A program made the position numbers and the translations under genes. Source: a virus (taxonomy: Duplodnaviria; Caudoviricetes). From it: a DNA stretch of 58,854 bases. Positions 1 through 58,854 of the stretch are shown one piece after another; the stretch's first letter is position 1, and each line of letters begins with the position of its first letter. The notes beneath the pieces were generated by a model that worked only from the letters and a program-made list of their open reading frames with translations, ran no database searches and was not told where the DNA came from. Location: positions 1 through 58,854 of the IMG/VR virus record IMGVR_UViG_3300028025_000002; one strand, 5' to 3'.

Positions 1-127
1 AAAGGGATACCGTACTTACTCTTTGAGAATGTTAAAGGACTCCTCAATCACGACGGAGGAAGAACCTTCGAAATCATCCTTGAAGTCTTGGATGGCATGG
101 GGTATGACTGTCAATGGGAATTGCTTG
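1..127. repeat. Terminal direct repeat, copy 1 (circular overlap)
   Basis: 1-127 is identical to 58728-58854 and the MTase reading frame runs through the junction. Confidence 0.97.
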
Positions 128-765
128 ACAGCCAAAATTTCGGCGTCCCACAGCACAGAGAAAGGATATTCCTTATCGGACATCTTAGAGGAAAACCCCG
201 ACCAAAAGTATTTCCTATCGGAGCAACAGGTAGAAGCAATGATGAAGCGAACACGCAAAAACGAGAAGGAAGGCAGGGGCTTTTCTCCGACATTTCTCCG
301 ACCCTCGACGCCCACTACTACAAAGGAGGAAACTCTCGACAGTATGTAGTTGAGCAGTTCATTCGTCGAGATAATTCTTTTAGAACTTTTGAAAATGTAG
401 CACCAACATTATTAGCCCACATGGGAACTGGTGGAAATAATGTTCCTTTTGTTCGTCCAGTTCTTGATGTAGCAAGAGTAAACAAGTCACCAAACGGGCG
501 ACTCATTAAAGATGATGGAGACCCGATGTACACGATAACAGCGCAAGACCGTCACGGAGTTCAAATCGGAGACGAAGATGGTTTTGCGATTAGAAAATTA
601 ACTCCCTTGGAGTGCGAGCGCCTTCAAGGATTACCCGATGGATGGACGGAGTTCTACGATGACGGACGACGAGTTTCAGATTCCGAAAGATACGAACGGT
701 GCGGAAGAACAATTACAATTCCAGTTGTGGAAGCGATTGGTAGAAGGCTTCATGAGTTCTACTGA
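1..765 (+). CDS. C5 cytosine DNA methyltransferase, C-terminal part
   Basis: Motif VIII FGVPQHRERIF, motif IX RKLTPLECERLQG, motif X variant RYERCGRTITIPVV. Confidence 0.95.
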   Translation, partial: KGIPYLLFENVKGLLNHDGGRTFEIILEVLDGMGYDCQWELLDSQNFGVPQHRERIFLIGHLRGKPRPKVFPIGATGRSNDEANTQKREGRQGLFSDISPTLDAHYYKGGNSRQYVVEQFIRRDNSFRTFENVAPTLLAHMGTGGNNVPFVRPVLDVARVNKSPNGRLIKDDGDPMYTITAQDRHGVQIGDEDGFAIRKLTPLECERLQGLPDGWTEFYDDGRRVSDSERYERCGRTITIPVVEAIGRRLHEFY

Positions 766-1399
766 GCCATTCTCTTTTGACACAATCGATAACTTTGACG
801 AACACATTGCTCAGTCAATCCCTAACTATCACACGCTGACCGAGGCAATCTGTGACCTCAGTACATACTTCATGACCGAAGATACCCAAGTGATTGACCT
901 CGGCTGTTCAACTGGAAAACTACTTGAGCAACTTCCTCATCGTGGTAAAAAAATTGGAATTGATATAGCCGATAATCTTTTGCCTGAGTCACATGATGAA
1001 ACTATGTATATCCGTAAAGACTTGAGAGCCTTTAATGGTTTTGGTAAATCAAGTTTGATTCTTTCTAACTTCACTCTTCAGTTCATTCCATACGAGGACA
1101 GACCAAACATCCTGAGCATCATCTATGAATCTCTAGTTGAGGGTGGGGCTTTTATATGGGCTGAGAAAGTCCGCGAAGAATCAGGCGAACTCGAGCAAGT
1201 AATCCATGGCGCTCACTATGATTTCAAGCGCAAAGCCTTTAGCGCTGAAGAGATATTAAACAAAGAACGCGACCTTCGACCAATCATGAAAGTAAACACT
1301 TCCATGAGAAATCAGATAATGGCAGAGAACGCAGGATTTACAGTCGGCACAATGTTTTGGAAGTTCTTTAACTTCGAAGCATGGATTTACATTAAATGA
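752..1399 (+). CDS. CmoA-like (carboxy-SAM synthase-like) class I SAM-dependent enzyme
   Basis: FSFD..FDEHIAQSIPNY, DLGCSTG, NFTLQF, AEK, DFKR, FNF motifs follow the CmoA pattern; overlaps the MTase stop. Confidence 0.8.
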   Translation: MSSTEPFSFDTIDNFDEHIAQSIPNYHTLTEAICDLSTYFMTEDTQVIDLGCSTGKLLEQLPHRGKKIGIDIADNLLPESHDETMYIRKDLRAFNGFGKSSLILSNFTLQFIPYEDRPNILSIIYESLVEGGAFIWAEKVREESGELEQVIHGAHYDFKRKAFSAEEILNKERDLRPIMKVNTSMRNQIMAENAGFTVGTMFWKFFNFEAWIYIK

Positions 1400-2583
1400 A
1401 AGCGAAGATAAAAGTTGGGCAAGTTGCTTCAGTTCCTTTGTCATCCCTTGAGGCATATCCGACAAATCCTCGTCGTGGCGATATTGAAGCGATTGCTCAG
1501 TCTCTCAAAGCCCATGGGCAATATAGACCGATTGTTGTTCAGTATGGTTCGAATTTTATCTTGGCAGGAAACCACACATACAAAGCGGCAAAGAAACTCG
1601 GCTGGAAAAAAATAAAGATTACTTATGTTGATGTAGATGAAGAAAGCGCTCGCAAGATTGTTTTGGCTGATAATCGCATGACTGACCTAGCGACCTATAA
1701 CGAGCCATTACTCAAAAGTTTATTGACCGCACTTCCTGAACTCGAGGGAACAGGCTTCACTCAATCTGAGGTTGAGACTTTAGATAGGCTGATGACTGGT
1801 AAAGATAAAGACCCTGTGGGCGGTTCTAAGCCTTTACCTAGCGACCCTGAAGTAAAGGTTAGCGCTTGGAAGTTTACAGTCGAGATGGAGGCTTACAAGG
1901 CTTGGAAAGAGCAACTTTATGTAGATGCTCCTACAAAACAAAAAGCCATCAAAGAGATTAAATCCCGATTAGGATTACCTGAGAGAAAGCCAGTTGAGCC
2001 TGAGCCAAGCGGTGAGCGCTCTGAAGTTAGCGCTGAGGATATAGAGACAGTCTCCATTAACGAGATTAAGGTTCATCCACTTAATCCAAGAGAAGGCGAC
2101 ATTGGTTCAATCATTGAGTCCCTTACACACATGGGTCAATATCGACCTATCGTGGTCAATAAAGTAACAAAACATATTCTCTCAGGGAACCACACCTATC
2201 AAGGGGCGGTTCAGTTAGGGTGGGAGAAGATTGCCGTTCATTGGGTTGAGGTTGATGATGTAGAGGAAATCAAAATCCTTATCGTAGATAACCGCACCTC
2301 TGACTTGGCAACATACGACCCACAGGAGTTAAACAAACTTCTGACGAGTACGGGCTTGCGGGGAACAGGCTTTAGTGCGGAAGAAGTTGCCGAAATCTTG
2401 GGTGGGGGAAAATCCAAGCCTGGGCATATTCCTGTGGGTCGCACCACCATCCGAGTAGGCGAACATTCAATGAGAGTTCATACAGAGGACTTAAACGAAT
2501 GGGCTAATTCAATCTATGGCTGGAAAGATGTTGCTGAGTTATTATTGATGCCTATTGAAGCGTGTACAACCGAGGTAGAATAA
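1396..2583 (+). CDS. Tandem ParB/sulfiredoxin-like N-terminal domain protein
   Basis: Two copies of NPR.GDI..I..SL...GQYRPIVV...ILxGNHTY...DNR. Confidence 0.85.
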   Translation: MKAKIKVGQVASVPLSSLEAYPTNPRRGDIEAIAQSLKAHGQYRPIVVQYGSNFILAGNHTYKAAKKLGWKKIKITYVDVDEESARKIVLADNRMTDLATYNEPLLKSLLTALPELEGTGFTQSEVETLDRLMTGKDKDPVGGSKPLPSDPEVKVSAWKFTVEMEAYKAWKEQLYVDAPTKQKAIKEIKSRLGLPERKPVEPEPSGERSEVSAEDIETVSINEIKVHPLNPREGDIGSIIESLTHMGQYRPIVVNKVTKHILSGNHTYQGAVQLGWEKIAVHWVEVDDVEEIKILIVDNRTSDLATYDPQELNKLLTSTGLRGTGFSAEEVAEILGGGKSKPGHIPVGRTTIRVGEHSMRVHTEDLNEWANSIYGWKDVAELLLMPIEACTTEVE

Positions 2584-3237: not shown

Positions 3238-4839
3238 ATGAGCGAGAGACTTCTCGATAAGTTCCTCGAAAGCGATTCCAATAAACAGGCTGAGTTGCTT
3301 GCGATGCTTACACCTGAAGAGCGTCATGCCCTGTTAGTAATCCTTGATGCCGAACTAGATAACCCTTGGGCTAGATGGCAAGGCGACCCAGTTGGTTTTG
3401 TTGAGCAAGGGCTAGGCGAGACTTTGTGGAGTAAACAAAAAGAGATTCTTAATTCCTTGCTAGTAAATAAAAGAACGGTAGTTCCTGCTTGTCACGCGCC
3501 TGGGAAATCTCACCTTGCGGCGCGAGCAGTTGCTTGGTGGCTATCAACCCATGCGGCGGGTACAGCGGTAGCAATTACAACAGCGACCACACACCGACAG
3601 GTCAGAAACATTATGTGGCCGCATATTCGAAGAGTTCACGCTAAACATAACTTGCCTGGCGAAGCCGATACGGTTCAATGGAAAATCAATGGCACCGTAG
3701 TTGGATACGGATTTAGTCCAAGCGCTCACGACGAAACAGCGGTTCAGGGTATTCACGCACCTAACTTGCTCGTAGTAGTTGATGAGGCTGGAGGTTTATC
3801 AGACACAATCGGTGGCGCCCTTGAATCTCTTATGACGGGTGGAAATACAAAACTACTTGTCCTTGGTAACCCTCCAACAGATACAGAGCAAACATGGTTC
3901 GAAAGAATCTGCTCGAGTCCGCTCTATAACATCATTCCAATCAGCGCATACGACACACCAAACTTTACGGGTGAACCAACTGGCAGATGTCGCTCATGCC
4001 CTGACTACATAGAAGCCCATGAAGTAAAAACTCACTTGGTTGATGAGACTTGGGTACATGATGTTATTTCTGAATTCGGTGAGGATTCTCCATTCGTTGA
4101 AGCCCGTGTCATGGCTCAGTTCCCTAAGTCAAGTACAGGCAAGGTAATTCCTTTTGCTTGGGCTGAGTTAGCAACAGAGAACGAAGAGCCGATTGAATCT
4201 AAGGTAATCAAACTTGGAGTTGATATTGCATCCGACGGCGGAGATGAATTTGTTATCGCTCGACTAGATGGCGGAGCAGTCAGTATTGTCCATCGCTCAT
4301 CGGGTAAACAAAACGCCAACGCAGTTGATGTTGCTGGTGTGGTCATGCGAGAGGTCGAAGCCTGTATCAAGATTCATCAGGATAGAGAAATCAGGGACAG
4401 AGTTAGAGTCAAAGTCGATACCATCGGATTAGGTTGGGGCGTTGTCTCCATGCTGGATAGATGGTGCAAAGAGCGAGCGCTACCCGCTGACATCATCGGA
4501 GTCAATGTAGCCGAGAAGCCTAAAGACCAAGCCAAATTTAAGAATCAAAGAGCCGAGATGTGGTGGAACGCCCGTCAGTTGATTCAACCCAAGGATGGCA
4601 AGCAAGAGATTCGATTGAATGTAGATAGATTCGTCTTATCGCAGTTGGCAGGACCAACCTATACATCGGATGCTTCAGGTCGAGTTGTTATTGAATCAAA
4701 GATAGACATGAAGAAAAGAGGCGTTGCTTCTCCTGATAGAGCCGAGGCAATCCTCCTAGCACTTTATGAGAATCGCTCGGTCATTCAAAGCATCGCCCCT
4801 ATCTCCATCGGTCAGTCGAATCAATGGGGAACTTTGTAA
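3238..4839 (+). CDS. terL: Terminase large subunit
   Basis: Walker A HAPGKS, Walker B VVVDEA, GNP coupling motif, nuclease GVDIA and SPDRAEA. Confidence 0.93.
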   Translation: MSERLLDKFLESDSNKQAELLAMLTPEERHALLVILDAELDNPWARWQGDPVGFVEQGLGETLWSKQKEILNSLLVNKRTVVPACHAPGKSHLAARAVAWWLSTHAAGTAVAITTATTHRQVRNIMWPHIRRVHAKHNLPGEADTVQWKINGTVVGYGFSPSAHDETAVQGIHAPNLLVVVDEAGGLSDTIGGALESLMTGGNTKLLVLGNPPTDTEQTWFERICSSPLYNIIPISAYDTPNFTGEPTGRCRSCPDYIEAHEVKTHLVDETWVHDVISEFGEDSPFVEARVMAQFPKSSTGKVIPFAWAELATENEEPIESKVIKLGVDIASDGGDEFVIARLDGGAVSIVHRSSGKQNANAVDVAGVVMREVEACIKIHQDREIRDRVRVKVDTIGLGWGVVSMLDRWCKERALPADIIGVNVAEKPKDQAKFKNQRAEMWWNARQLIQPKDGKQEIRLNVDRFVLSQLAGPTYTSDASGRVVIESKIDMKKRGVASPDRAEAILLALYENRSVIQSIAPISIGQSNQWGTL

Positions 4840-7256: not shown

Positions 7257-7685
7257 ATGTCTCTTACACCAGCAGTCTCCGCACTTTTGAAGGCTTCATG
7301 CCCAACCGCAACTCAGGATGTAAGAGCCAACCTTGAGAACCGTGCCAAAGCCATTGAGACGGCTTCCTACGGTCCTCTAAACCCTTCCGAGCCTAATGAT
7401 GACTACTGGGCAAAGATGGGCGCTGAATGGGGCGTTAGCGCCGAAGAAGCCAAGAAGCAAAGATGTGGCAACTGTGCGGCGTTTATCCAAACCTCAGCGA
7501 TGCTCCAATGTATCGAAGGCGGATTAGCCCAAGGCGATGACCGAGTGACCGCTTGGGAAGTCAGCGAGGCTGGCGAGTTGGGATATTGCGAGGCTTTTGA
7601 TTTTAAGTGTGCGAGCGCTAGAACTTGCCGTGCTTGGATTGTCGGAGGTCCAGTTACAGATTCAAATGCAGGGCGCTTGAAGTAA
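7257..7685 (+). CDS. Cys-rich hypothetical protein, probably leaderless
   Basis: CP.ATQD...YGPLNP...RCGNCAAF...GYC...FKC..RTC.AW; TACACT lies 6 nt upstream. Confidence 0.7.
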   Translation: MSLTPAVSALLKASCPTATQDVRANLENRAKAIETASYGPLNPSEPNDDYWAKMGAEWGVSAEEAKKQRCGNCAAFIQTSAMLQCIEGGLAQGDDRVTAWEVSEAGELGYCEAFDFKCASARTCRAWIVGGPVTDSNAGRLK

Positions 7686-8080
7686 TGTACGAGTACCGAG
7701 TTAAACAAGTTTTGAAAGTTGTCGATGGTGACACTATTGATGTCATTATCGATTTAGGTTTCGATGTCTCTTTCACCTCCCGAGTTCGCCTTGCTGGAAT
7801 CGATACTCCTGAATCTCGAACAACAGATGCAAGAGAAAAAATCCTAGGGGTCGAAGTAAAAGATTATTTGAAAAAGGCTTTAGAAGGCGCAACCGATATT
7901 GTCATCCGCACCGAGAAAGCGGACAGTTCAGAAAAGTACGGCAGAATTCTTGGATGGCTATTTATCAATCGCCAAACAGATTCGCTCAACATGGAATTAG
8001 TGAATAAGGGCTACGCTTGGTCTTACGACGGTGGAACTAAGAAGAAAGATTTTGAGGAGTTGTTGAGGAAAAGACGATGA
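7685..8080 (+). CDS. Thermonuclease (SNase family)
   Basis: VVDGDTID, RVRLAGIDTPE, KYGRILG, N.ELV..GYA. Confidence 0.9.
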   Translation: MYEYRVKQVLKVVDGDTIDVIIDLGFDVSFTSRVRLAGIDTPESRTTDAREKILGVEVKDYLKKALEGATDIVIRTEKADSSEKYGRILGWLFINRQTDSLNMELVNKGYAWSYDGGTKKKDFEELLRKRR

Positions 8081-9329: not shown

Positions 9330-10253
9330 CTATGGTTTTACAACCTCGGTTTGAACCGCCATGAGTCCGAGCGCAACTGTCGCCCATAGGTCAGGAGTTT
9401 CTGTATCAGGCTGATAGCCACCTGCTCCACCAAGCAAGATTGGATGGTCGAAGTATTGCTCCCTAATCATCCGCATCGATTCGAAATAACCCTCTTTAGT
9501 GAACTCAAGAGATGAGAGTGGGTCATTCTTCAAAGCATCGGCACCACAAGCAATAAAAATCATCGTAGGTTGGAATTCATCGCAAGCCTTGAGGAATCCC
9601 TCAGTAGCAGATAACAAAGCCTCATCGCCCGACTTAGGCGCTAGAGGAAAGTTATACGCACGATTCTTCCAATCGCTGAGTAAACCCGTGCCTGGAAAAA
9701 TCCCATACTCATGAACCGAGTAAGTCATAACATTCTTATTCGATTTCAGAAGCATTTCAGTACCGTCACCATGGTGAGCATCGCAATCAAAGATTGCTAC
9801 ACGCTGTTCAAACTCGTTAGTTGCTTTAGTAGCGGCGATAGCAAAATCATTGAAGATACAGAATCCGCTGGAGTAATCACGCATCGCATGATGCTTAGCA
9901 CCAGCAAAGTGAACAGCCAATCTAGTTTTGTAATCAATCAAAGAATCAAGGGCAGTCAAAGTACCGCCAGCGAATAACTTGGCTAGTTCACCTAAGTCGT
10001 GGCGTTGTCCATCCCATTCAGTCGATTCTCCTCGAACAGTTACATCGTAGACATATTCCATATCGTGAACCGCATGAAGGTCATCGGTGTGTGGCATCTG
10101 AGATTCAATCTCATACACATTCAAACGACGCTCTTGCGCTCGCAAAAGGAATTGATTACGGGCATGAAGGAATCTACGCCCTTGAGTTGGATGCGTAGGG
10201 TCAAAAACCCAATTCGCATACTCAGGCGAATGAACTAATACAGCGTGTTCCAT
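9330..10253 (-). CDS. Zn-dependent deacetylase (HDAC/AcuC family)
   Basis: HP, HHA, SGFCIFND, DCDAHHGDG, SVH, FPGTG, GADA..DPLS, GGY. Confidence 0.92.
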   Translation of the reverse strand: MEHAVLVHSPEYANWVFDPTHPTQGRRFLHARNQFLLRAQERRLNVYEIESQMPHTDDLHAVHDMEYVYDVTVRGESTEWDGQRHDLGELAKLFAGGTLTALDSLIDYKTRLAVHFAGAKHHAMRDYSSGFCIFNDFAIAATKATNEFEQRVAIFDCDAHHGDGTEMLLKSNKNVMTYSVHEYGIFPGTGLLSDWKNRAYNFPLAPKSGDEALLSATEGFLKACDEFQPTMIFIACGADALKNDPLSSLEFTKEGYFESMRMIREQYFDHPILLGGAGGYQPDTETPDLWATVALGLMAVQTEVVKP

Positions 10254-10420
10254 CAATCTTCATACCTCTCTGTAAGTGGATAAAGATAACCGCCCATTGC
10301 GACATCCATTCCAGTTTTAATAACAACACCCTCGGATGAGAGTTCGACTTTTGCACTAGACATGAATTGAATAATCCATGCTTGTAAATCTTCTTTCGTC
10401 TCTACTTCAGCAATATCCAT
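10253..10420 (-). CDS. Small hypothetical protein
   Basis: MDIAEVETKE...; RBS and promoter upstream. Confidence 0.55.
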   Translation of the reverse strand: MDIAEVETKEDLQAWIIQFMSSAKVELSSEGVVIKTGMDVAMGGYLYPLTERYED

Positions 10421-20246: not shown

Positions 20247-21680
20247 ATGGCTGAGAAAATAACGCCTGATTTACAAGAGTTCGGCTCTACTGGTCTGCGT
20301 CGTTCGGGCGGAACTGTCTTTGAAGAATTTTTAGTTAATCTCCGTGGACAACGCGGAGCGAGAATCTATCGTGAGATGGCGGACAACGACCCGACTATCG
20401 GCTCGATGTTATTCGCAATCGAAAAAGTTATTACTCGTCTTGAATGGCGCATAGACCCTTATTCAGATAATTCTAAAGATGGAGAGATTTCTCCTGAAGA
20501 TAAAGAAGTTGCGGCGTTCGTAGAATCTTGTTTACACGATATGAGCGAGTCTTGGGACTCTGCTTTATCTCAAATGCTTTCGATGTTGGTCTTTGGTTAT
20601 TCATACCATGAGATTGTTTACAAAATCCGCGAAGGTGATAACGAAAACCCACAGCGTAAATCTAAATTCAATGATGGTCGTATCGGCTGGCGCAAGATGC
20701 CAATTCGCGCCCAAGAAACTTTATTCCGATGGATGATGGATGAAGATGGCGGTATTCAAGGAATGGTTCAAGTAGACCCTTCCTCGGGCGGTATCCACCA
20801 CATTCCAATCGAAAAGTCTTTGCTATTCCGTACCAGTTCACAGAAGAATAACCCTGAAGGTCGTTCTATTCTTCGTAACTCATATCGCTCTTGGTACTTC
20901 AAGCGCCGTATTGAAGAGATTGAAGCAATCGGTATTGAGCGCGACTTAGCAGGTTTACCAGTTGCTTATGTGCCACCTGAGTTTCTTTCATCAACAGCAA
21001 CTACCGAGCAAGCATCAGTATTAGCGACAATTCAAAATATCGTTACATCTATCAAGCGTAACGAGCAAGAAGGAATCGTCATGCCTTCTATGTATGACGA
21101 CCAAGGACATAAGGTATTTGATTTAGTTCTTCTATCTTCAGGCGGTTCTCGTCAGTTTGATACAGACAAGATTATCCAGCGTTATGACCAAAGAATTGCA
21201 ATGTCAATCCTTTCTGACTTTATTCTCCTTGGTTCTGACCGAGTTGGTTCTTATGCCCTTGGTACATCCAAGATGGATTTGTGGTCAATGGCGGTTGATT
21301 CAATCGCTAAGAACATCGCTGAAGTAATCAATCAACACGCAATTCCTCGTTTATTAAAACTAAACGGTATGGATGTTTCTCGCGCTCCTTATCTAACTTA
21401 TGGTGAAGTAAGCCATGTTGATTTGAATGAGATTGCTGGATTTGTTGGAGGCTTAGTACAAACAGGCGCAATAGTTCCTGACCCTAAGTTAGAAGAGTAT
21501 CTTCGCGATTTGGCTGGATTACCACCTGCTGAACATGATGGACAGAATTTTGGTATGCCTCCAATGCCTGAAGGCGAAGGGCTTCCTCCAATGCCTGAAG
21601 AATCAACTACATCAGGCGAAGAAGAATTACCTCCCGCTCCTACACAAACTGAGGCTCCGAAACTTCCTGAAGTTGGTTAA
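20247..21680 (+). CDS. Portal protein (DUF935/Mu gp29-like)
   Basis: YREM..ND..I, FGYS..EIVYK, NPEGRSILR, GIERDLAGLP, GSYAL; first gene of the head module. Confidence 0.88.
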   Translation: MAEKITPDLQEFGSTGLRRSGGTVFEEFLVNLRGQRGARIYREMADNDPTIGSMLFAIEKVITRLEWRIDPYSDNSKDGEISPEDKEVAAFVESCLHDMSESWDSALSQMLSMLVFGYSYHEIVYKIREGDNENPQRKSKFNDGRIGWRKMPIRAQETLFRWMMDEDGGIQGMVQVDPSSGGIHHIPIEKSLLFRTSSQKNNPEGRSILRNSYRSWYFKRRIEEIEAIGIERDLAGLPVAYVPPEFLSSTATTEQASVLATIQNIVTSIKRNEQEGIVMPSMYDDQGHKVFDLVLLSSGGSRQFDTDKIIQRYDQRIAMSILSDFILLGSDRVGSYALGTSKMDLWSMAVDSIAKNIAEVINQHAIPRLLKLNGMDVSRAPYLTYGEVSHVDLNEIAGFVGGLVQTGAIVPDPKLEEYLRDLAGLPPAEHDGQNFGMPPMPEGEGLPPMPEESTTSGEEELPPAPTQTEAPKLPEVG

Positions 21681-21682
21681 AG

Positions 21683-22687
21683 ATGGCAATTCATTTTGCG
21701 AAAGCGCGAAATAAGCGAGTTCCTTTAACACCTCAAGAACAAGAACTTGCTCGCACTCTTTATCAATCAATTCAGCGAGCCACAGATAAAATCTCTATGA
21801 GACAACTTGAATCGTTGCTTCGCAATATGAATCCTGAAACTTTAGAGCGTTTGTTATCAAGCATAACTATTGCTAACCAAAAGAGTATCCAAGAATCTTT
21901 ATTAAATTCGATTGACCTAGGTGGTAAAGATGCCATCAAACAAATTCAAAAGATTGCTCCTAAATTAGCCCTTCCAGCCTTCTCGCCTTCTAAGGTAAAG
22001 ATTGATAATCGACAGGCAATGGCTAACCTTGAATTCACAAAACTTCCTACATGGGCGCAATCTAAACCACCCAAAGTTGAATTCACTATGTCATTTAATA
22101 AAACAAACCCAAACTCTTTAGCCTTTGCTCAACGCCGTGCTGGAGAACTTATTACCTCGATTGACGCTTTAACCCGTAATTCAATTCGTAAAGCAATCAT
22201 TGACGCCTTTAATGAAGGCTTGGATTACAGAGCAACAGCCCGAAGAATTAAAAGTGTCGTAGGGCTACATCCAAGATGGGCTGATGCAGTAACTAATTTT
22301 GAAAAAAGAGAGTTTGCCCGATTAGTCAAAAGCGGAATGAAAGAAGAGACTGCTCGCGCTCGCGCAATAGAACGCTCTACCCGCTACTCAGATTCTCTCA
22401 AGAGCAAAAGAGCAACAATGATTGCTCGAACAGAGATTCAGATTGCTCAAAATGAGGGGCGCTACGAAGGTTGGAAGCAAGCATCAGAACAGGGTTATGT
22501 AGATGTTGAATCACAGAAGATGTGGATTATTGCTCAAGATGAACGCACTTGCGAAATTTGTTCTGAATTAGATGGCGAAATAGTTCCTTGGAACGAAACA
22601 TTTTCTAGCGGACATGAAACTCCAGGCAGAGTTCATCCTAATTGTCGTTGCACCATGGTAATCATTCCACCTGAGAGACGCTCATGA
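21683..22687 (+). CDS. MuF-like minor head protein
   Basis: RA.MIARTE, K.W....D.RTC.IC..LDG, HPNCRC. Confidence 0.9.
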   Translation: MAIHFAKARNKRVPLTPQEQELARTLYQSIQRATDKISMRQLESLLRNMNPETLERLLSSITIANQKSIQESLLNSIDLGGKDAIKQIQKIAPKLALPAFSPSKVKIDNRQAMANLEFTKLPTWAQSKPPKVEFTMSFNKTNPNSLAFAQRRAGELITSIDALTRNSIRKAIIDAFNEGLDYRATARRIKSVVGLHPRWADAVTNFEKREFARLVKSGMKEETARARAIERSTRYSDSLKSKRATMIARTEIQIAQNEGRYEGWKQASEQGYVDVESQKMWIIAQDERTCEICSELDGEIVPWNETFSSGHETPGRVHPNCRCTMVIIPPERRS

Positions 22688-23460
22688 GTATTACAATCGC
22701 ATTTCCACTTGGATATAAGCCAGTAATTAAACACGGAGACCACGACCAGTCTAGCCATGGTGCTTGGGCTTCAGGAATCATGAATGACCTTGTTACTTTA
22801 GGTAATTTCAATGAAGAGGAGTTGGGAGAAAGTTCACAAAATCTGTATTTTGAAACATACGGGATTAAAACTGATGGCAGTAAAGAACCCGTAGGAATCT
22901 CCCGTAATCAAATAGAAAGTTTGAACTCCTACACAGGAGAGGGATATACAAAAATAAATGCTTTTTTGCGCGGGCGAGGAGATAGTGGAAGCGACCCATT
23001 ATCAACAACAGAAGGCAAAATTTCTGATTTAGATAAACTTATAGAAGATTCACCCGATATGTTCGGAGACAAAAATTTATATCGAGTATTTGATAAAAAC
23101 CTAATAGATACTCTAAAAGAAGGAGACATTTTGACAGACAAAGGATTTATGTCTACAACTAGAGTTGATATAACAAGTGATGAGGGTCAAGAAGTATTGC
23201 AAAACTTACAGTTGATTCGCTTAACAGAAGATAGAGCCTCAATTATTTTGCCAAGTGAGTCTAAAAAAGGCAAAGGTCTTGCAGTCGATTATCTTAAAAA
23301 TTCTGTTTCAGATTTGTTCACAAATGTAGCAACAGCAAATAATGAAAAAGAAGTATTATTGCCACGCAATACTTCTCTCAAATTCCAAGGCTATAAAAAA
23401 TTGAATGAGGGAACGGACAATGCCATGGAGATTGCAGTCTTTCAAAGGATGGACAAATGA
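22684..23460 (+). CDS. ADP-ribosyltransferase (VIP2/Alt-like) with HDQ tag
   Basis: YT..GY..IN..LR, LYR, DKGFMSTT, EKEVLLPRNT. Confidence 0.88.
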   Translation: MSITIAFPLGYKPVIKHGDHDQSSHGAWASGIMNDLVTLGNFNEEELGESSQNLYFETYGIKTDGSKEPVGISRNQIESLNSYTGEGYTKINAFLRGRGDSGSDPLSTTEGKISDLDKLIEDSPDMFGDKNLYRVFDKNLIDTLKEGDILTDKGFMSTTRVDITSDEGQEVLQNLQLIRLTEDRASIILPSESKKGKGLAVDYLKNSVSDLFTNVATANNEKEVLLPRNTSLKFQGYKKLNEGTDNAMEIAVFQRMDK

Positions 23461-24179
23461 GTAGATTCATAACCATGCTTGGGGATGTTGAGATAACCCG
23501 AGCCAAAGATGTTAAAAAACATGGAGACCACGACCAAAGTTCTCACGGTGCTTGGGCTACGGGAGTTGGCTATAAAGATTCAGATGAACACCCCAAATAC
23601 GATTCTGCTGAAAATGGCGTAAATGTTGAATACTATACAAGTGTCGGGTCTTGGGAAATTAACGGTCTGCTTAGAACTGGAAAAGTACCTGAAGATTCAA
23701 ATTCTAATAAAGGAGAAATTCGTGACTATATTAAATCTCTTGATACCGAAATAAGTAAAACTTCAACACCTAGAGATTTAGTTTTATTTAGAGGAACTTC
23801 GGGAACTGGAACTGAAGTTTTTGAAAAACTTAAAGTAGGCGATATTTATATTGACAAAGGTTTTGTTTCAACTACTTTAGATATAGCCGTTGTACCTGAA
23901 TTTATGTCTACGGCTACGGGCGGGAGATACGATTCAAGACCAATAGAAAAAGGATATGTTTTAGAAATAAGCGTTCCTAAAGGCAGTAAAGCCTTATCAG
24001 TCAATAGTTATTTTAGAAATGTAAGTGGCAGATATGGACCAAGCGACGATATTCGTAAAGAGGATGAACATATTTTGCCACGCAACACAAAATTTAGAGT
24101 GGATAGCATAAGTAGTATTGATGTTCGAGGTCTAAAAGATAAACTTATTAAAGTATCGGTGGTAGATGATGGCAAGTAA
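23457..24179 (+). CDS. Second ADP-ribosyltransferase (VIP2/Alt-like) with HDQ tag
   Basis: IN.LLR, LFRG, DKGFVSTT, EDEHILPRNT.F.V. Confidence 0.88.
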   Translation: MSRFITMLGDVEITRAKDVKKHGDHDQSSHGAWATGVGYKDSDEHPKYDSAENGVNVEYYTSVGSWEINGLLRTGKVPEDSNSNKGEIRDYIKSLDTEISKTSTPRDLVLFRGTSGTGTEVFEKLKVGDIYIDKGFVSTTLDIAVVPEFMSTATGGRYDSRPIEKGYVLEISVPKGSKALSVNSYFRNVSGRYGPSDDIRKEDEHILPRNTKFRVDSISSIDVRGLKDKLIKVSVVDDGK

Positions 24180-26040
24180 ATATGTTTATGCCGAATCAGA
24201 CGATATTGAAATCCTTATATCTAAGCACGGCGACCATGACCAGTCTAGTCATGGCTCATGGGCGAAGGGAGTCCAAGTAGCCCCTGAGATTGTCCGCTCA
24301 ACCCTTGAGAGGGTCAAGGAGAATGGCGGTCTCTCAGTAAGCCTAAAGGACGGTTCTGAGCCTACTAAGGGGTTCATGGTTGCCAAAGGTAAGAAGTTCG
24401 CGGCGATAGTCAAGGCTGACGAATTTTTTGATGAGGCTAAGGGCGCTGAGATTCTTTCCTCCTATATGAAGCAACATAAATCAGAGTTCAATAATTCGAA
24501 TAACTACCTAGGTTTATGGCACAATACTGATGATGGACAGGTTTACCTTGATGTTTCAGAAAACATTGAGGACGAGGGGGAGGCTATCTCTCGGGGTCGT
24601 GAACGCGACCAAATCTCAATTTGGGATGTAGCAAACTTCAAAGAGATAGAAACAGGAGGAACAGGTGGCATCGAAAAAACTCGAAGCGGTACAACTGCCC
24701 GATATGTCGAACATGACAGACGAGCAGATAGACGCTTACGCCAAAGAGATTTGGGCGAAGTTAGCAAAAGGCAAGAACGAGTCAAAGTAATTTATTTTGA
24801 TTATGGATTAAAACCCGTATTCAAACACGGGGAACATGACCAGTCCGAACACGGTAACTGGGCTAGAGGTTTTACTGAAGATGAAATTGCTCGCATAGAA
24901 GAAATGCGCGGTGTTGGTCCATCTTTAGAGGACTTAGATAATGTCATGAAAGATATGGAAGTTGAATTTAGTGATGAGCGATTAAAACTTACTGTTGAAA
25001 ATGACAGCGACTTTTATAGAGAAGCAACTCAAGATATTGATGAAAAGGTTGCTGAACGCCTTAAAAACCTACAAGAAGAATTTCCTAACCATGAATATAG
25101 TGAGCAAGAAAAAGCAACCATCTATGAAGATGTACAAAACGAGATGATTGATGAGTATGTAGAAAATTACAGAGATATGCTGACTGAATACGAAACACTT
25201 AATTCAGGCGAAACAGGCGGTACCCAACAAGACCCTGAAGAGTTAGTTCCGTATTTTGACGAGGTTTTTGGAGTTAGCCATACGGGTACTCACCCTGATG
25301 GTCGTGAAATAACTTTGACCGCAAACATCGGTAGCGTGTTTAGAGACGGAAATAGTATTTATGTCCGTGGAGATATTGTCGATGAAAACGGCGATATGGT
25401 CGGAGAACTTAGCCGAAGATTTTTTAATGAAAACGGTATATGGAATGTTGAACACGAAGTCCTAGCAATTCCTGACCCTGATTATCAAGGTACAGGTTTT
25501 GGTAAAGCACTCATTGAGCAATCTGAGGCTTGGTACACAGCAAGAGGTATGGGATATATTCAAGTTGGAACAGCATGGGATGGCGCTCGCCATTGGGCGC
25601 GAGCAGGTTATGACTTTGCGCCTGGGAAGGTTGCTGACAGTCTACAAACGATTGCTAACAATGTTGAATATGTAGATGGATTCGAAAGAGGCACTCCAGC
25701 AAGAGCGGAGTACGATGCTTTGATGAGTAGAGCAACAAATAATTATCAACCTGATTTTACAGATGAAAGTGGTAATCAATACCCCGCTTGGGATTCAGTT
25801 AAAGATATAAAAGAAGATGGTTTTCCCCTTCCTGCTCATTTTGCAAACATTGGTTACACAGAGGGCGCAAGAGATTGGGCTGGCAAGAGTTTGATGTATG
25901 ACTTGAGATTGAAGTATGTAAAGTCATTGACTGCTGAAGGTCAGAAACTATTAGAGGGTCCTATCGACCATGATGGCGATGGATTGATTTATGACGGAAC
26001 AGCGCGTGAGAAGCCAGCACCTACTGGCGGAAAGAACTAA
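24169..26040 (+). CDS. Multidomain protein with two HDQ tags: unknown domain plus GNAT-like acetyltransferase
   Basis: GNAT motif YQGTGFGKAL...G..HWARAGYDF; C-terminal DHDGDG..YDGT motif. Confidence 0.75.
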   Translation: MASKYVYAESDDIEILISKHGDHDQSSHGSWAKGVQVAPEIVRSTLERVKENGGLSVSLKDGSEPTKGFMVAKGKKFAAIVKADEFFDEAKGAEILSSYMKQHKSEFNNSNNYLGLWHNTDDGQVYLDVSENIEDEGEAISRGRERDQISIWDVANFKEIETGGTGGIEKTRSGTTARYVEHDRRADRRLRQRDLGEVSKRQERVKVIYFDYGLKPVFKHGEHDQSEHGNWARGFTEDEIARIEEMRGVGPSLEDLDNVMKDMEVEFSDERLKLTVENDSDFYREATQDIDEKVAERLKNLQEEFPNHEYSEQEKATIYEDVQNEMIDEYVENYRDMLTEYETLNSGETGGTQQDPEELVPYFDEVFGVSHTGTHPDGREITLTANIGSVFRDGNSIYVRGDIVDENGDMVGELSRRFFNENGIWNVEHEVLAIPDPDYQGTGFGKALIEQSEAWYTARGMGYIQVGTAWDGARHWARAGYDFAPGKVADSLQTIANNVEYVDGFERGTPARAEYDALMSRATNNYQPDFTDESGNQYPAWDSVKDIKEDGFPLPAHFANIGYTEGARDWAGKSLMYDLRLKYVKSLTAEGQKLLEGPIDHDGDGLIYDGTAREKPAPTGGKN

Positions 26041-54365: not shown

Positions 54366-54908
54366 ATGGACAACGCATTATCAGTAACACCGATAGACGA
54401 TTTTGAAATCGTTGAAGAACCAGCCCGTGAGCCATTCGTCGTTGATGACGATTCAAAAGCAGATTGGGCTATGAGAAAACTTGCATCTATTCGACGCAAG
54501 CAATCAGATAACAAAGCCATCTTTGACCGAGAGGTCAAGAGAGTCGCAGAATGGCTAGATAAGGTCAATACAGACCTCGAAAGAGATGCTGAGTGGTTTG
54601 AGGCGAACCTACGCCCTTACGCCCTTCAGGAGCGCTCTAAAGACCGTAAAAGCATAGTTCTGCCCCACGGCACCATCAAAACTATTTCAGGTCGAGTTAA
54701 GTTCGATATTGAGGATGAATCCAAGTTCCTTGAATGGGCTGAAACCAATGCACCTGAATTAGTTCGAGTTAAAAAAGAAATTGATAAAAAAGCCCTAGGT
54801 GCTTTGAATCAGTCAGAAGATAAAGTAATATCAACCCAAGGAGAAATTGTTCCTTCAGTCAAAGTTGTACCCGCTGAAGTATCAGTTTCGTTTGTAATCG
54901 CGGAATAG
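54366..54908 (+). CDS. Mu Gam-like DNA end-binding protein
   Basis: F.V.D...ADWA.RKL...KS..LPHG...V.VK.E.DK. Confidence 0.8.
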   Translation: MDNALSVTPIDDFEIVEEPAREPFVVDDDSKADWAMRKLASIRRKQSDNKAIFDREVKRVAEWLDKVNTDLERDAEWFEANLRPYALQERSKDRKSIVLPHGTIKTISGRVKFDIEDESKFLEWAETNAPELVRVKKEIDKKALGALNQSEDKVISTQGEIVPSVKVVPAEVSVSFVIAE

Positions 54909-54919
54909 AGAGAGGGAAC

Positions 54920-55591
54920 ATGGAAAACAAATTACCTATCGCTCAAGCATTGAGTGAAGTTATGAAAGCAGTCGGAGCAATCTCAAAGAAGGACAAGAAT
55001 ACAGCCCAAGGATTTAACTTCCGAGGAATTGATTCAGTCGTCAATGCGGTCTCACCAGCACTTCAAAAGTTTGGCGTAGTTGTTGTGCCTTCAGTTGAAG
55101 AGTACGACTATCAAACAGTTGAGATTGGACGCAACCGAACAGCAATGGGTCATGTAAGAGTCAAAGTGACTTACACATTTATCGGAGTAAACGGCGATGC
55201 AATTAAAGCAACAGTAGTTGGAGAAGCAATGGACTCAGGCGATAAGGCAACAGCCAAAGCCATGTCAGTTGCTTTTCGTACTGCTCTACTTCAATCGCTA
55301 TCACTACCAACTGATGAAGTAGACCCTGATGCACATTCTTATGAGCGTTCAAGTGCTAACGATGTTTTAGCGCCCGAGGCTCTTATTACAAAGATAAATC
55401 AAGCAACCACGATTGAATCTTTATCTGAAGTCGGTCAGTACATAACCGCGAACAAGGACGCTTACCCCGTTGGACTTCTTGACCAATTCCGTGCCAAGTT
55501 CAAAGAGCAACAATCTAAATTGAACCCGCCAAAACTGGAAGAGGAAATTGAAGATGTCAGCACTATTGAATCAGCCCGAGTTACCGTATAA
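54920..55591 (+). CDS. ERF family ssDNA-annealing protein
   Basis: K...N..QGF.FRGID.V...GEA.DSGDKAT.KAMS.A. Confidence 0.85.
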   Translation: MENKLPIAQALSEVMKAVGAISKKDKNTAQGFNFRGIDSVVNAVSPALQKFGVVVVPSVEEYDYQTVEIGRNRTAMGHVRVKVTYTFIGVNGDAIKATVVGEAMDSGDKATAKAMSVAFRTALLQSLSLPTDEVDPDAHSYERSSANDVLAPEALITKINQATTIESLSEVGQYITANKDAYPVGLLDQFRAKFKEQQSKLNPPKLEEEIEDVSTIESARVTV

Positions 55592-57923: not shown

Positions 57924-58126
57924 ACTGGAATTTAATATGGACAGTAGTTGGATTAGCGGTTGCTAGTTTTTTCGTACTGCCGTTTTATCTCGCAATGTTA
58001 ATTGCGTATAAGAAATCTGTTATGAAGATTGAATTGGAATTTGTTGCAACAGCAAACTCTATTCAAAAGAAGGTTAAGTTTGATGATGCTGTCGAACGCC
58101 TGTTCGAAGAAGGAGAAGTTATATGA
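57920..58126 (+). CDS. Small membrane protein
   Basis: N-terminal TM helix; GGAG RBS. Confidence 0.6.
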   Translation: MNWNLIWTVVGLAVASFFVLPFYLAMLIAYKKSVMKIELEFVATANSIQKKVKFDDAVERLFEEGEVI

Positions 58127-58422
58127 GTACAGTTATGGAAGCAACAGAGTTAGACGGCAAAGGACTTGATGAAGTCAAACTACTTACCGATGCTATCCGT
58201 ACCCATCAGGTACAGATTCAAGATTTAGGTAAACGCCGTAAGCAGTTGATTCTTCGACTTCGTAAACAGCGCATCACATATCGTGAAATTGCCGAAGCAA
58301 TGGGAGTATCCGAGCAGTTGATTTACAAAATCATCCGCAATGATATTTCTCGTACACCCGAGTACGACGCTCAAGGCAAACTAATTCGTAGACGAGGGCG
58401 ACCAGCGAAACCTGTTGCCTAA
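58123..58422 (+). CDS. HTH DNA-binding protein with AT-hook-like RGRP tail
   Basis: TYREIAEAMGVSEQLIYKII; RRRGRP. Confidence 0.75.
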   Translation: MSTVMEATELDGKGLDEVKLLTDAIRTHQVQIQDLGKRRKQLILRLRKQRITYREIAEAMGVSEQLIYKIIRNDISRTPEYDAQGKLIRRRGRPAKPVA

Positions 58423-58854
58423 TGAAGTTCATAGAGTTATTCGCAGGAGTTGGTGCGTTCAGACTCGGACTTGAAAGAACTGGTCATGAGTGTGTGTGGG
58501 CTAACGAATGGTTAGAGAGACCTAGGAGTATTTATGCACGAAACTTCGGACACCAACCTGACGGACGAGATATTAGAGATGTTTCCGCTGGAGACATTCC
58601 TGATGCCGACCTCCTCGTTGGAGGATTCCCTTGTGCGACTTTTTCAGTTGCAGGAAAGCGAACTGGATTCTCTTTGGATGACACCCGAGGGACACTCGCT
58701 TTTGAAATGTTTAGACTCGCTCGCGACAAAGGGATACCGTACTTACTCTTTGAGAATGTTAAAGGACTCCTCAATCACGACGGAGGAAGAACCTTCGAAA
58801 TCATCCTTGAAGTCTTGGATGGCATGGGGTATGACTGTCAATGGGAATTGCTTG
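58422..58854 (+). CDS. C5 cytosine DNA methyltransferase, N-terminal part (continues at 1-765; about 356 aa joined)
   Basis: ATG overlaps the upstream TAA; motif I ELFAGVG, motif IV GGFPCATFS, motif VI FENVKG; missing from the ORF track because the contig end truncates it. Confidence 0.95.
   Translation, partial: MKFIELFAGVGAFRLGLERTGHECVWANEWLERPRSIYARNFGHQPDGRDIRDVSAGDIPDADLLVGGFPCATFSVAGKRTGFSLDDTRGTLAFEMFRLARDKGIPYLLFENVKGLLNHDGGRTFEIILEVLDGMGYDCQWELL
58728..58854. repeat. Terminal direct repeat, copy 2 (probably a k=127 assembly overlap)
   Basis: Exact copy of 1-127. Confidence 0.97.

What the first reader, a model, noticed from the sequence alone, without database searches (positions are those of the whole stretch)
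1..1399. Candidate DNA carboxymethylation system: C5 MTase with a natural motif X Asn->Arg overlapping a CmoA-like gene
Seen: the C5 MTase (58422 through the junction to 765) has CGRTI where motif X normally reads GN(S/A)V (Arg codon 706-708) and PCATFS where motif IV normally reads PCQxFS (Ala codon 58635-58637); the catalytic Cys and ENV are intact. Its stop overlaps a CmoA-like gene. Established: CmoA makes carboxy-SAM from SAM and prephenate; engineered Asn->Lys at this motif X position (M.MpeI N374K, Dcm N436K) turns C5 MTases into carboxymethyltransferases; Gln82 and Asn304 are the M.HhaI residues mutated to accept bulkier cofactors. Inference: the phage makes its own carboxy-SAM and writes 5-carboxymethylcytosine, probably against restriction. 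Caveats: by eye the CmoA Arg199 position aligns as K-E-R rather than K-R, and natural phage examples may already be published, so novelty needs checking.
Basis: partly seen in the sequence, partly recalled or inferred. Interest (0 to 1): 0.92.

Follow-up and report, generated by a model that had tools for sequence, protein, structure and literature searches.

The report
Phage DNA carboxymethylation module (CmoX–CmoA type)
This phage carries a cytosine methyltransferase-like enzyme with an arginine in its cofactor pocket, fused in an operon to its own carboxy-SAM synthase, which most likely writes 5-carboxymethylcytosine into its DNA; this chemistry was published for another phage in 2025, but here it sits on a different, M.HhaI-like enzyme lineage.

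Summary
The window is a complete circular 58.7-kb phage genome with a 127-nt end overlap. One 356-aa C5-MTase runs 58422 through the junction to 765.

- Ala (58635-58637) sits at M.HhaI Gln82.
- Arg (706-708) sits at M.HhaI Asn304.
- Cys and ENV are intact.
- A CmoA homolog starts at 752, 14 nt before the MTase stop.
- A double ParB_N gene overlaps the cmoA stop.

Yang et al. 2025 (PMC12783734) showed that Synechococcus phage S-B43 CmoA makes Cx-SAM. Its CmoX, with Arg350 at HhaI Asn304, writes 5cxmC.

What is new here:
- This enzyme is not of the SpCmoX (SPPC) lineage. It forms one clade nested inside ordinary GFPC Gln/Asn methyltransferases.
- An AU test rejects a single origin of the Arg enzymes (p 0.0008).
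- Ala, the ERxGR motif and an adjacent cmoA are strictly linked: 159 of 159 loci, against 0 of 16 Gln/Asn relatives.
- No CmoY ligase is present, so plain 5cxmC is the likely end product.
- The CmoA Arg199 worry is answered. The proven SpCmoA has the same Glu199/Arg203 swap.

No biochemistry exists for this protein.

The parts
58123..58422 (+). Small HTH protein (99 aa). Its stop TAA shares one base with the MTase ATG (taATG). Likely first gene of the operon or a regulator.
   Evidence: Pfam HTH_23 E 1.1e-08. Junction sequence read. Conserved upstream of the MTase in most related loci.
58422..58854 (+). N-terminal part of the C5-MTase-like carboxymethyltransferase candidate (CmoX-like). Motif I FAGVG is at 58440-58454. 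Motif IV FPC-A is at 58626-58637, with Cys71 at 58632-58634 and Ala72 at 58635-58637. ENV is at 58752-58760. The last 127 nt repeat window 1-127.
   Evidence: PF00145 E 7.1e-47. M.HhaI E 7e-37 against 8YF3 E 7.1e-07. Overlap shown. Coordinates.
1..765 (+). C-terminal part of the same gene. It holds ENV (25-33), QHRER motif VIII (151-165), and the target-recognition region with repeated PTLxAH..GG modules (298-315 and 403-420) plus YTITAQ (529-546). Motif IX starts at 589. Motif X YERCGR is at 691-708, with Glu334, Arg335 and Arg338 (706-708). Stop is at 763-765.
   Evidence: PF00145 E 1e-33. Alignment to M.HhaI Asn304. DNA read. Coordinates. Modules.
752..1399 (+). CmoA-like carboxy-SAM synthase candidate (215 aa from ATG 752). 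It overlaps the MTase stop by 14 nt. SAM-binding DLGCSTG is at 896-916 and FTLQF at 1070-1084. Helix KERDLR is at 1262-1279, where Glu172 matches EcCmoA Arg199 and Arg176 matches EcCmoA Glu203.
   Evidence: TIGR00740 E 1.6e-29 (103 bits, below the 193-bit equivalog cut-off). PDB 1im8, 4iwn and 4gek. 42% identity to SpCmoA in pairwise alignment. Residue map. The 14-nt overlap holds in 80 of 80 related loci.
1396..2583 (+). ParB_N x2 protein (395 aa). Its start ATG overlaps the cmoA stop (ATGA). It is a conserved third member of the module, with unknown role.
   Evidence: PF02195 E 8.2e-15, two stretches. Junction read. Found downstream in 54 of 58 related loci that have at least 700 nt after cmoA. 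The ParBc association is also reported in PMC12783734.

Best explanation
This is a phage DNA cytosine-C5 carboxymethylation module of the CmoX/CmoA kind. Four translationally coupled genes are read together: HTH, cmoX-like, cmoA-like and a double ParB_N gene.

Inferred from homology to the assayed SpCmoA: the CmoA-like enzyme converts host SAM and prephenate into carboxy-SAM.

Inferred from the catalytic motifs and from SpCmoX: the MTase-like enzyme flips out a target cytosine, attacks C6 with Cys71, and transfers the carboxymethyl group of Cx-SAM to C5. Arg338, held in an E-R-x-G-R motif, pairs with the cofactor carboxylate. Ala72 in place of Gln makes room.

No amide ligase is encoded, so the product probably stays 5-carboxymethylcytosine rather than the glycyl amide.

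The purpose is most likely protection of phage DNA from host restriction at the enzyme's target sites. I guess that these sites include GCGC, the one G+C-rich 4-bp palindrome this lineage does not avoid.

The enzyme belongs to the M.HhaI-like GFPC branch of C5-MTases. It acquired the Arg independently of the published SpCmoX (SPPC) branch.
For: (1) All catalytic motifs are present. Arg sits at HhaI Asn304 and Ala at Gln82.

(2) The published homologous system works this way (PMC12783734). SpCmoX motif X is TERVGR and the window's is YERCGR. Motif IV is SPPCS against GFPCA.

(3) The CmoA-like protein keeps 8 of the 9 EcCmoA cofactor contacts I mapped besides Arg199: Y39, D62, G64, S66, D89, D117, N132, F137 and E164 are kept, and N90 is Ile. 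The list of contacts comes from passages of PMC3663124; the map is. It shares the Glu199/Arg203 arrangement with the assayed SpCmoA.

(4) Linkage. Among loci fetched from IMG/VR, 159 of 159 Ala/Arg MTases with enough flank have cmoA next to them (12 clusters at 80% identity; 93 distinct sequences among 161 loci). Of 16 Gln/Asn relatives with at least 1.2 kb on both sides, 0 have one within 3 kb (14 clusters). The overlap is 14 nt in 80 of 80 loci.

(5) I compared 151 sequences: P0002 plus the 150 nearest 50%-identity representatives.
- 131 are Gln/Asn and 7 are Ala/Arg.
- Ala with a true Asn was not seen. The single Ala/Asn row, P0124, is a 233-aa fragment that ends before motif IX.
- The remaining rows are Pro/Asn 4, Gln/Asp 2, Gln/gap 2, Gln/Met 1, Pro/Leu 1, gap/Arg 1 and Ala/gap 1.

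(6) No cmoB, so Cx-SAM has no tRNA use encoded here. No Asn-synthase-type ligase. No ligase in 44 ORFs scanned with Pfam.

(7) It is the only DNA MTase family found in the genome.

(8) Tree: the Ala/Arg clade has 100* support and is nested in the GFPC Gln/Asn family (99*). The SPPC family is separate (99*). Holding all Arg enzymes together costs 123.3 lnL, p-AU 0.00076.

(9) Structure: M.HhaI is the top Foldseek hit at 2.9e-22; 8YF3 ranks 19 at 4e-15.
Against: - No assay exists for this protein or any member of its clade.
- The CmoA-like protein scores 103 bits against the 193-bit equivalog cut-off of TIGR00740. It lacks Arg at the EcCmoA Arg199 column.
- Arg alone does not define cofactor choice. 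SpCmoX R350N was dead with both cofactors. The engineered M.MedI N377K still methylates fully with SAM (passage). A mixed 5mC/5cxmC output is therefore not excluded.
- The target site is unknown. The recognition region has no PDB relative at E up to 10 and is modelled at pLDDT below 50.
- The genome avoids AGCT, GGCC, GCWGC, CCGG and ACGT almost completely. Whatever is written does not give broad GC or CG protection.
- The groups in the AU test were defined by a trait, but after I had seen the tree.
- Loci from different scans partly re-sample the same contigs, and the Ala/Arg enzymes are one clade. The 159-against-0 table therefore reflects one origin followed by retention, not many independent events.
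Confidence: 0.8

Rival explanations
1. 5cxmC is only an intermediate. An enzyme in this genome that is not of the CmoY/asparagine-synthetase type converts it further (amide, ester or decarboxylated form), so the final base is a hypermodification not yet described.
For: In S-B43 the phage DNA carries only the glycyl amide and no free 5cxmC. 2,251 ligases accompany the paper's 5,615 CmoX candidates. The window encodes enzymes of unassigned role: a histone-deacetylase-family amidohydrolase (PF00850, E 5.5e-57, 9330-10256 minus strand) and a GNAT-containing 624-aa protein. Many ORFs have no Pfam hit.
Against: No PF00733 hit at E up to 1 in a complete genome. No ATP-dependent ligase in 44 ORFs scanned. 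The conserved module in the related loci is MTase, CmoA and ParB, with nothing else inserted. S-CRM01, an isolated phage, also has cmoA and cmoX without a ligase between or beside them. ORFs under 100 aa and part of the structural region were not scanned.
Confidence: 0.12
2. The MTase is an ordinary SAM-dependent 5-methylcytosine methyltransferase. The CmoA-like gene serves something else, such as draining host SAM against SAM-dependent defences or supplying Cx-SAM to host CmoB.
For: Engineered Asn-to-Lys enzymes keep methylation activity. The paper itself raises SAM depletion as a possible side role of phage CmoA. The CmoA-like protein is below the equivalog cut-off.
Against: Asn at this position is kept in 131 of 151 nearest representatives and is replaced by Arg only together with Ala72 and an adjacent cmoA. 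The 14-nt overlap is kept in 80 of 80 loci. Wild-type SpCmoX with the same Arg takes only Cx-SAM.
Confidence: 0.06
3. The CmoA-like enzyme makes a SAM derivative other than Cx-SAM, and the MTase transfers that group.
For: The Arg199 column differs from the bacterial family, and the score is below the cut-off.
Against: SpCmoA has the same Glu199/Arg203 pattern and was shown to make Cx-SAM, at higher kcat than EcCmoA. The other cofactor contacts are kept.
Confidence: 0.02

Closest known systems
CmoX / CmoA / CmoY of Synechococcus phage S-B43 (Yang et al., Nat Commun 2025, PMC12783734; PDB 8YF3)
   Same: A C5-MTase homolog with Arg at the M.HhaI Asn304 position sits beside a phage CmoA. The E-R-x-G-R motif X is shared. 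A small residue follows the catalytic Cys (Ser there, Ala here). ParB-domain neighbours are reported for 1,660 of their contigs. CmoA shares the Glu199/Arg203 arrangement and is the window CmoA's best hit among isolated phages.
   Different: - Motif IV is GFPC, not SPPC. A literal reading of the paper's filter ('SPPC' plus R350) would leave this family out. The supplements were closed, so I could not check.
- The N half matches M.HhaI at E 7e-37 but 8YF3 at only 7e-07.
- It lies in a separate clade, and the AU test rejects one origin.
- Gene order is cmoX then cmoA with a 14-nt overlap; in S-B43 the order is cmoA, cmoY, cmoX.
- There is no CmoY.
- The host group is probably different: TerL is 52-53% identical to Arthrobacter phage terminases.
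- The target is probably not the bare GC of SpCmoX, because AGCT, GGCC and GCWGC are purged from the genome.
M.HhaI (GCGC C5-methyltransferase) and its cofactor-pocket variants
   Same: It is the best solved relative: E 7e-37 for residues 1-139, and the Foldseek top hit. It has the same GFPC, ENV and QxRxR motifs. The two positions changed here, Gln82 and Asn304, are the ones I recall being mutated (Q82A, N304A, with Y254S) to fit larger SAM analogues. That recollection comes from no call.
   Different: Natural Ala72 and Arg338, plus Glu334/Arg335 where M.HhaI has Lys300/Gln301. The recognition region is unrelated.
Engineered carboxymethyltransferases M.MpeI N374K and M.MedI N377K
   Same: A positive side chain at the motif X Asn position pairs with the Cx-SAM carboxylate (passages of PMC12015181).
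   Different: They carry Lys, not Arg. They are CpG-specific and keep SAM activity. No natural cofactor supply gene is attached.
Bacterial CmoA/CmoB tRNA cmo5U pathway (E. coli b1870/b1871)
   Same: CmoA fold and cofactor contacts.
   Different: No cmoB in the phage. The Arg is moved from position 199 to 203. The acceptor is DNA cytosine.
Multispecific C5-MTases of Bacillus phages (SPR, phi3T; recalled, no call)
   Same: Tandem short recognition modules, each with a T-L/I-type motif, between motifs VIII and IX.
   Different: Here the module number varies among close relatives (1, 2 or 3 PT[LIV]xA modules). No specificity has been measured.

Membership tests
C5 cytosine DNA methyltransferase (PF00145 / TIGR00675) | Profile match over the curated cut-off across both halves | tested here: met
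   PF00145 scores 160.8 and 117.6 bits (cut-off 22). TIGR00675 scores 175.3 and 125.2 bits (cut-off 100.65).
C5 cytosine DNA methyltransferase (PF00145 / TIGR00675) | Catalytic PC (motif IV), ENV (motif VI) and QxRxR (motif VIII) | tested here: met
   FPC at 58626-58634, ENV at 58752-58760, QHRER at 151-165. They align to M.HhaI.
C5 cytosine DNA methyltransferase (PF00145 / TIGR00675) | Gln after the catalytic Cys and Asn in motix X (GN), as in SAM-using enzymes | tested here: not met
   Ala72 and Arg338. 131 of 151 nearest representatives have Gln/Asn.
CmoX, DNA cytosine C5-carboxymethyltransferase (Yang 2025) | Arg at the position of SpCmoX Arg350 / M.HhaI Asn304 | tested here: met
CmoX, DNA cytosine C5-carboxymethyltransferase (Yang 2025) | 'SPPC' motif used in the paper's sequence filter | tested here: not met
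   GFPC. This is the paper's search criterion, not a shown functional need.
CmoX, DNA cytosine C5-carboxymethyltransferase (Yang 2025) | CmoA gene in the neighbourhood | tested here: met
   The adjacent gene overlaps by 14 nt. 159 of 159 clade members with enough flank have it.
CmoX, DNA cytosine C5-carboxymethyltransferase (Yang 2025) | Common descent with SpCmoX (same clade) | tested here: not met
   The tree separates them by starred branches. AU p 0.00076 against one clade of Arg enzymes.
CmoX, DNA cytosine C5-carboxymethyltransferase (Yang 2025) | Transfers carboxymethyl from Cx-SAM and not methyl from SAM | not testable with these tools
   Needs an enzyme assay or LC-MS.
CmoA, carboxy-SAM synthase (TIGR00740) | Equivalog score over the cut-off | tested here: not met
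   103.3 bits against 193.3. It is still the best family by far (next is BioC at E 3.3e-07).
CmoA, carboxy-SAM synthase (TIGR00740) | Cofactor-contact residues of EcCmoA (Y39, D62, G64, S66, D89, D117, N132, F137, E164) | tested here: met
   All nine are kept. N90 is Ile. The residue list comes from passages of PMC3663124.
CmoA, carboxy-SAM synthase (TIGR00740) | Arg199 salt bridge to the carboxylate | tested here: inconclusive
   The column holds Glu, and Arg lies four residues on (Ec position 203). The same holds in the assayed SpCmoA, in S-CRM01, and in 9 of 9 family loci aligned. Whether Arg176 takes the role needs a structure.
CmoY, 5cxmC amide ligase (asparagine-synthetase homolog) | A PF00733-type gene in the genome | tested here: not met
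   0 matches at E up to 1 in a genome rated 100% complete.
ParBc neighbour (PF02195) | ParB N-terminal domain protein beside the MTase | tested here: met
   Two ParB_N stretches, E 8.2e-15. Found in 54 of 58 related loci.

The most novel reading that the evidence does not exclude
Natural DNA carboxymethyltransferases arose at least twice. This clade converted an ordinary M.HhaI-like Gln/Asn methyltransferase into a Cx-SAM enzyme by a small fixed set of pocket changes: Gln to Ala after the catalytic Cys, and Lys-x to Glu-Arg and Asn to Arg in motif X. It thereby converged on the same E-R-x-G-R signature as SpCmoX. It recruited a cyanophage-type CmoA (Arg203 type). A literal reading of the published SPPC filter would have left it out. 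It leaves plain 5cxmC at longer sites such as GCGC, using a recognition region built of gain-and-loss modules. That would give a natural recipe for turning other C5-MTases of known specificity into carboxymethyltransferases.
Probability: 0.5. Interest if true: 0.6.

Novelty: new variant of a known kind. Interest (0 to 1): 0.45.

Why it matters
The chemistry itself, phage-made Cx-SAM and 5cxmC in DNA, has been known since December 2025, so the headline claim is not a discovery.

This window adds a second, abundant enzyme lineage that reaches the same pocket solution from a different starting scaffold. That lineage has 179 relatives in IMG/VR and thousands of database proteins.

- It narrows down which residues matter: Ala72, Glu334, Arg335 and Arg338.
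- It shows that the ligase step is optional.
- It offers M.HhaI-like enzymes, probably with 4-bp or longer targets, for 5cxmC-based sequencing and labelling tools. Those tools now rely on engineered CpG enzymes.
- It shows that the CmoA Arg can sit one helical turn away, which matters for annotating Cx-SAM synthases.

Tried and rejected
1. **Complex prediction, CmoX-like (alignment A3) with the ParB_N x2 protein (A4).** No verdict: score 0.00 in both runs. It says nothing either way about binding.

2. **Recognition region against solved structures.** 0 hits at E up to 10, so the target site cannot be read from homology. The AF2 model is confident for the catalytic domain only (mean pLDDT 68.3; residues 177-286 below 50).

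3. **Host through prophages.** The genome-contig scan gave 9 loci. Only one is close: a 2.2-kb contig of a MAG, 97% identical over 101 residues, probably a stray phage contig. No host could be named.

4. **Sequencing runs.** 20 rows in 11 studies, all kept as contigs, with no long-read raw data to look for modification signals. I did not lay reads. Two runs hold half or more of the sampled words (labelled subsurface metagenome), and either may be the source sample.

5. **First regex for the CmoA helix.** It was too strict: 66 of 80 loci came out 'cut/none'. I replaced it with an alignment of 19 CmoAs.

6. **Regex call of motif X.** It produced three false Gln/Arg rows (L180-L182) and other odd rows. 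I replaced it with hmmalign columns, which call them Gln/Asn.

7. **AU test.** It needed three calls to finish (60, 61, 63).

8. **Start codon.** I considered ATG 638 as the cmoA start (128-nt overlap). I prefer ATG 752 because of the agaagg just upstream and because homology to CmoA starts there. This was not proven.

9. **One origin with later loss of Arg.** Considered and rejected by the nested position and the AU test. The trait's own columns were left in the tree. They would pull the two Arg groups together, so this does not favour my conclusion.

Supplementary files of PMC12783734 were not available. I therefore could not check whether this family is among its 5,615 CmoX candidates.
Full report
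**What is in the sequence**

The window is a complete virus record with direct terminal repeats. Its first and last 127 nt are identical, and its G+C is 43%. The frame open from 58422 to the end and the frame open from base 1 to 765 share 42 residues and are one gene. Database proteins of 356 aa that are 99% identical confirm the uninterrupted form (P0002, P0003).

Both halves match the C5-MTase profile (PF00145, E 7.1e-47 and 1e-33). HMMER alignments to solved structures place GFPC-A on GFPC-Q of M.HhaI, so Cys71 corresponds to Cys81 and Ala72 to Gln82. They place C-G-R-T-I on F-G-N-S-V, so Arg338 corresponds to Asn304.

Gene junctions:
- The MTase stop (763-765) lies inside the next gene, whose ATG at 752 follows an agaagg.
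- That gene's stop overlaps the ATG of a 395-aa protein with two ParB_N domains.
- Upstream, a 99-aa HTH protein ends one base into the MTase ATG.

These are four coupled genes.

**The second gene is a CmoA homolog**

Its best NCBIfam family is TIGR00740 (E 1.6e-29), but at 103 bits against a cut-off of 193. Its best solved relatives are H. influenzae YecO (1im8, E 2.9e-23) and E. coli CmoA (4iwn, 4gek).

I aligned 19 CmoAs, including E. coli CmoA taken from the K-12 record.
- The window protein keeps Tyr39, Asp62, Gly64, Ser66, Asp89, Asp117, Asn132, Phe137 and Glu164. These contact the cofactor in EcCmoA (passages of PMC3663124).
- The same is true of SpCmoA of phage S-B43, which was assayed and is more active than EcCmoA.
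- In SpCmoA, S-CRM01, two Staphylococcus phages, a Streptomyces phage and all nine family members aligned, an Arg sits at E. coli position 203, one helical turn on.
- The CmoAs of PaBG, an Erwinia phage and an Alcaligenes phage keep Arg199 and Glu203.

The 'K-E-R' Arg next door is not conserved (Lys or Gln in relatives). The conserved candidate is Arg176, the last residue of KERDLR. That Arg176 does the job is my inference.

**It is already known as a kind**

The library holds one paper on a natural system: Yang et al. 2025, PMC12783734. I read its abstract, Results, Discussion and Bioinformatics method and searched its text.

It shows:
- Cx-SAM synthesis by SpCmoA.
- 5cxmC formation by SpCmoX with Cx-SAM only.
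- Dependence on cmoA in E. coli.
- A 1.9 Å structure (8YF3) in which Arg350 replaces HhaI Asn304 and touches the carboxymethyl group.
- Resistance of the product to HhaI.
- A GC target.
- A ligase, CmoY, that adds glycine.
- A census of 5,615 candidates defined by 'SPPC' plus R350, with 4,257 CmoA, 2,251 ligase and 1,660 ParBc neighbours.

**How this one differs**

The N half of the window enzyme matches M.HhaI at E 7e-37 and 8YF3 at only 7.1e-07. A model of P0002 finds M.HhaI first (2.9e-22) and 8YF3 at rank 19 (4e-15).

I took the 150 nearest 50%-identity representatives plus P0002. The pairs of residues at the two pocket positions are:

| Motif IV / motif X | Rows |
|---|---|
| Gln/Asn | 131 |
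| Ala/Arg | 7 |
| Pro/Asn | 4 |
| Gln/Asp | 2 |
| Gln/gap | 2 |
| Ala/Asn | 1 |
| Gln/Met | 1 |
| Pro/Leu | 1 |
| gap/Arg | 1 |
| Ala/gap | 1 |

The single Ala/Asn row is P0124, a 233-aa fragment without motif IX. I take its Asn as misalignment but did not verify this.

The Arg enzymes also read R-Y-E-R-x-G-R where the others read R-Y-K-x-x-G-N. SpCmoX reads T-E-R-V-G-R. PaBG, TurkishDelight and an Erwinia phage enzyme read E-R-[LI]-G-R.

The tree has 68 rows: 7 Ala/Arg, 48 Gln/Asn-family representatives chosen by length from the list, and 13 isolate-phage enzymes.
- The Ala/Arg group is one clade (100*) inside the GFPC family (99*).
- SpCmoX and the other SPPC enzymes lie in a separate clade (99*).
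- Forcing all 13 Arg enzymes together lowers lnL by 123.3, p-AU 0.00076.

I read this as independent acquisition. The caveats are few SPPC rows, long branches (Erwinia and YongM are flagged), a quick tree, and a group named after the tree was seen.

- In the 80 closest IMG/VR loci, all 80 have the cmoA-like gene directly after the MTase, with the same 14-nt overlap. ParB follows in 54 of the 58 with at least 700 nt of room; two of the other four have a ParB-like gene upstream.
- Three further scans with divergent Ala/Arg representatives brought both kinds of enzymes.
- With residues read from an hmmalign, 159 of 159 Ala/Arg loci with enough sequence have cmoA. A further 6 that are cut at the N terminus have Arg and cmoA. 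8 with Ala are too short to say.
- 0 of 16 Gln/Asn loci with at least 1.2 kb on both sides have cmoA. 3 more Gln/Asn loci are too short. 5 other rows are cut or have Pro/Asn, and none has cmoA.
- The Ala/Arg loci fall in 12 clusters at 80% identity, with 93 distinct sequences among 161. Some contigs were fetched twice.

All Ala/Arg enzymes are one clade. This shows retention of the pair over much divergence, not repeated co-gain.

**End product and role**

The genome has no asparagine-synthetase homolog and no cmoB. It has no other DNA MTase family. No ligase turned up in the 44 ORFs scanned. S-CRM01 likewise has cmoA and cmoX without cmoY. Plain 5cxmC is the simplest end product.

**Target site**

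The genome is purged of several short palindromes (observed against expected):

| Site | Observed | Expected |
|---|---|---|
| ACGT | 0 | 102 |
| AGCT | 0 | 243 |
| CCGG | 0 | 104 |
| GATC | 0 | 243 |
| GGCC | 8 | 136 |
| GCWGC | 0 | about 74 |
| CASTG | 0 | about 55 |
| GCGC | 170 | 199 |

 Over the 80 related loci (499,849 nt) the pattern holds: AGCT 0 of 1,884 expected, GATC 89 of 2,435, and GCGC 1,614 of 1,669.

This is strong site avoidance against host restriction. I infer two things from it. The modification does not shield all GC or CG sites. GCGC may be a protected target. Absence of GCGC-cutting enzymes in the hosts would explain the pattern equally well.

The recognition region has repeated PT[LIV]xA..GG modules (10 of 22 residues identical between the two copies). 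Their number differs among close relatives: one, two or three. This recalls multispecific phage MTases, a comparison from memory.

**Verdict**

The kind is known, and the lineage and its residue signature appear to be new. No activity was measured.

Noticed in passing
whole window; also L002-L081: Near-total avoidance of short palindromes. ACGT, AGCT, CCGG and GATC occur 0 times (102 to 243 expected). GGCC occurs 8 times of 136 expected. GCWGC and CASTG occur 0 times, CCAGA/TCTGG once, and many 6-bp palindromes 0 times. GCGC is at 0.86 of expectation (0.97 across 500 kb of related loci).
   Followed up: partly
window 166-588 (recognition region of the MTase); P0088, P0107, P0120: The recognition region is built of repeated modules of about 35-40 aa (PTLDAH..GG and PTLLAH..GG). 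Close relatives carry one, two or three of them, which suggests gain and loss of specificity modules.
   Followed up: partly
L083:5977-8495 and L084:5959-7658 (Staphylococcus phages vB-SscS-F1 and SPbeta-like): The cmoA-linked C5-MTases keep Gln in motif IV but have Gly-Gly (VGGVI) where motif X has Gly-Asn. F1 has a PP-loop (SGGNGS) gene between cmoA and the MTase. This may be a third pocket solution, and an Arg-based filter would not capture it.
   Followed up: no
L091, L092, L093, L089 (Bacteroides, Flavobacterium, Bacillus, Methylophilales phages): SPPC-family MTases without a cmoA neighbour in the stretch fetched have Gly-Met or Gly-Leu at motif X and Ser or Pro after the catalytic Cys. 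In that family the Gln/Asn pair is not conserved even without Cx-SAM genes.
   Followed up: no
L090 (Streptomyces phage TurkishDelight) and L094 (Pseudomonas phage PaBG): Isolated phages show ParB-like genes next to an Arg-type MTase, cmoA and an amidotransferase or Asn-synthase gene. The ParB association is therefore seen in cultured phages too.
   Followed up: no
window 9330-10256, minus strand: Histone-deacetylase-family (Zn amidohydrolase) protein, PF00850 E 5.5e-57. This is unusual in a phage and its role is unknown.
   Followed up: no
window 21683-26040: After the Mu-F-like head protein come two tandem genes with the ADP-ribosyltransferase exoenzyme domain (E 4e-14 and 3.5e-19) and a 624-aa protein with a weak GNAT match. 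They may be packaged or injected host-modifying enzymes.
   Followed up: no
window 3238-4839; 20247-21680; 54366-55591; 7625-8080: The large terminase is 52-53% identical to Arthrobacter phage terminases. There is a Mu-type portal, Mu Gam-like and ERF recombination proteins, and a staphylococcal-nuclease homolog. No DNA polymerase was seen among the scanned ORFs.
   Followed up: no
window 1262-1279 (CmoA helix KERDLR): Phage CmoAs come in two forms: Arg199/Glu203 as in E. coli (PaBG, Erwinia, Alcaligenes phages), and Glu or other residue at 199 with Arg203 (S-B43, S-CRM01, Staphylococcus and Streptomyces phages, and this family). This looks like a charge swap one helical turn apart.
   Followed up: partly
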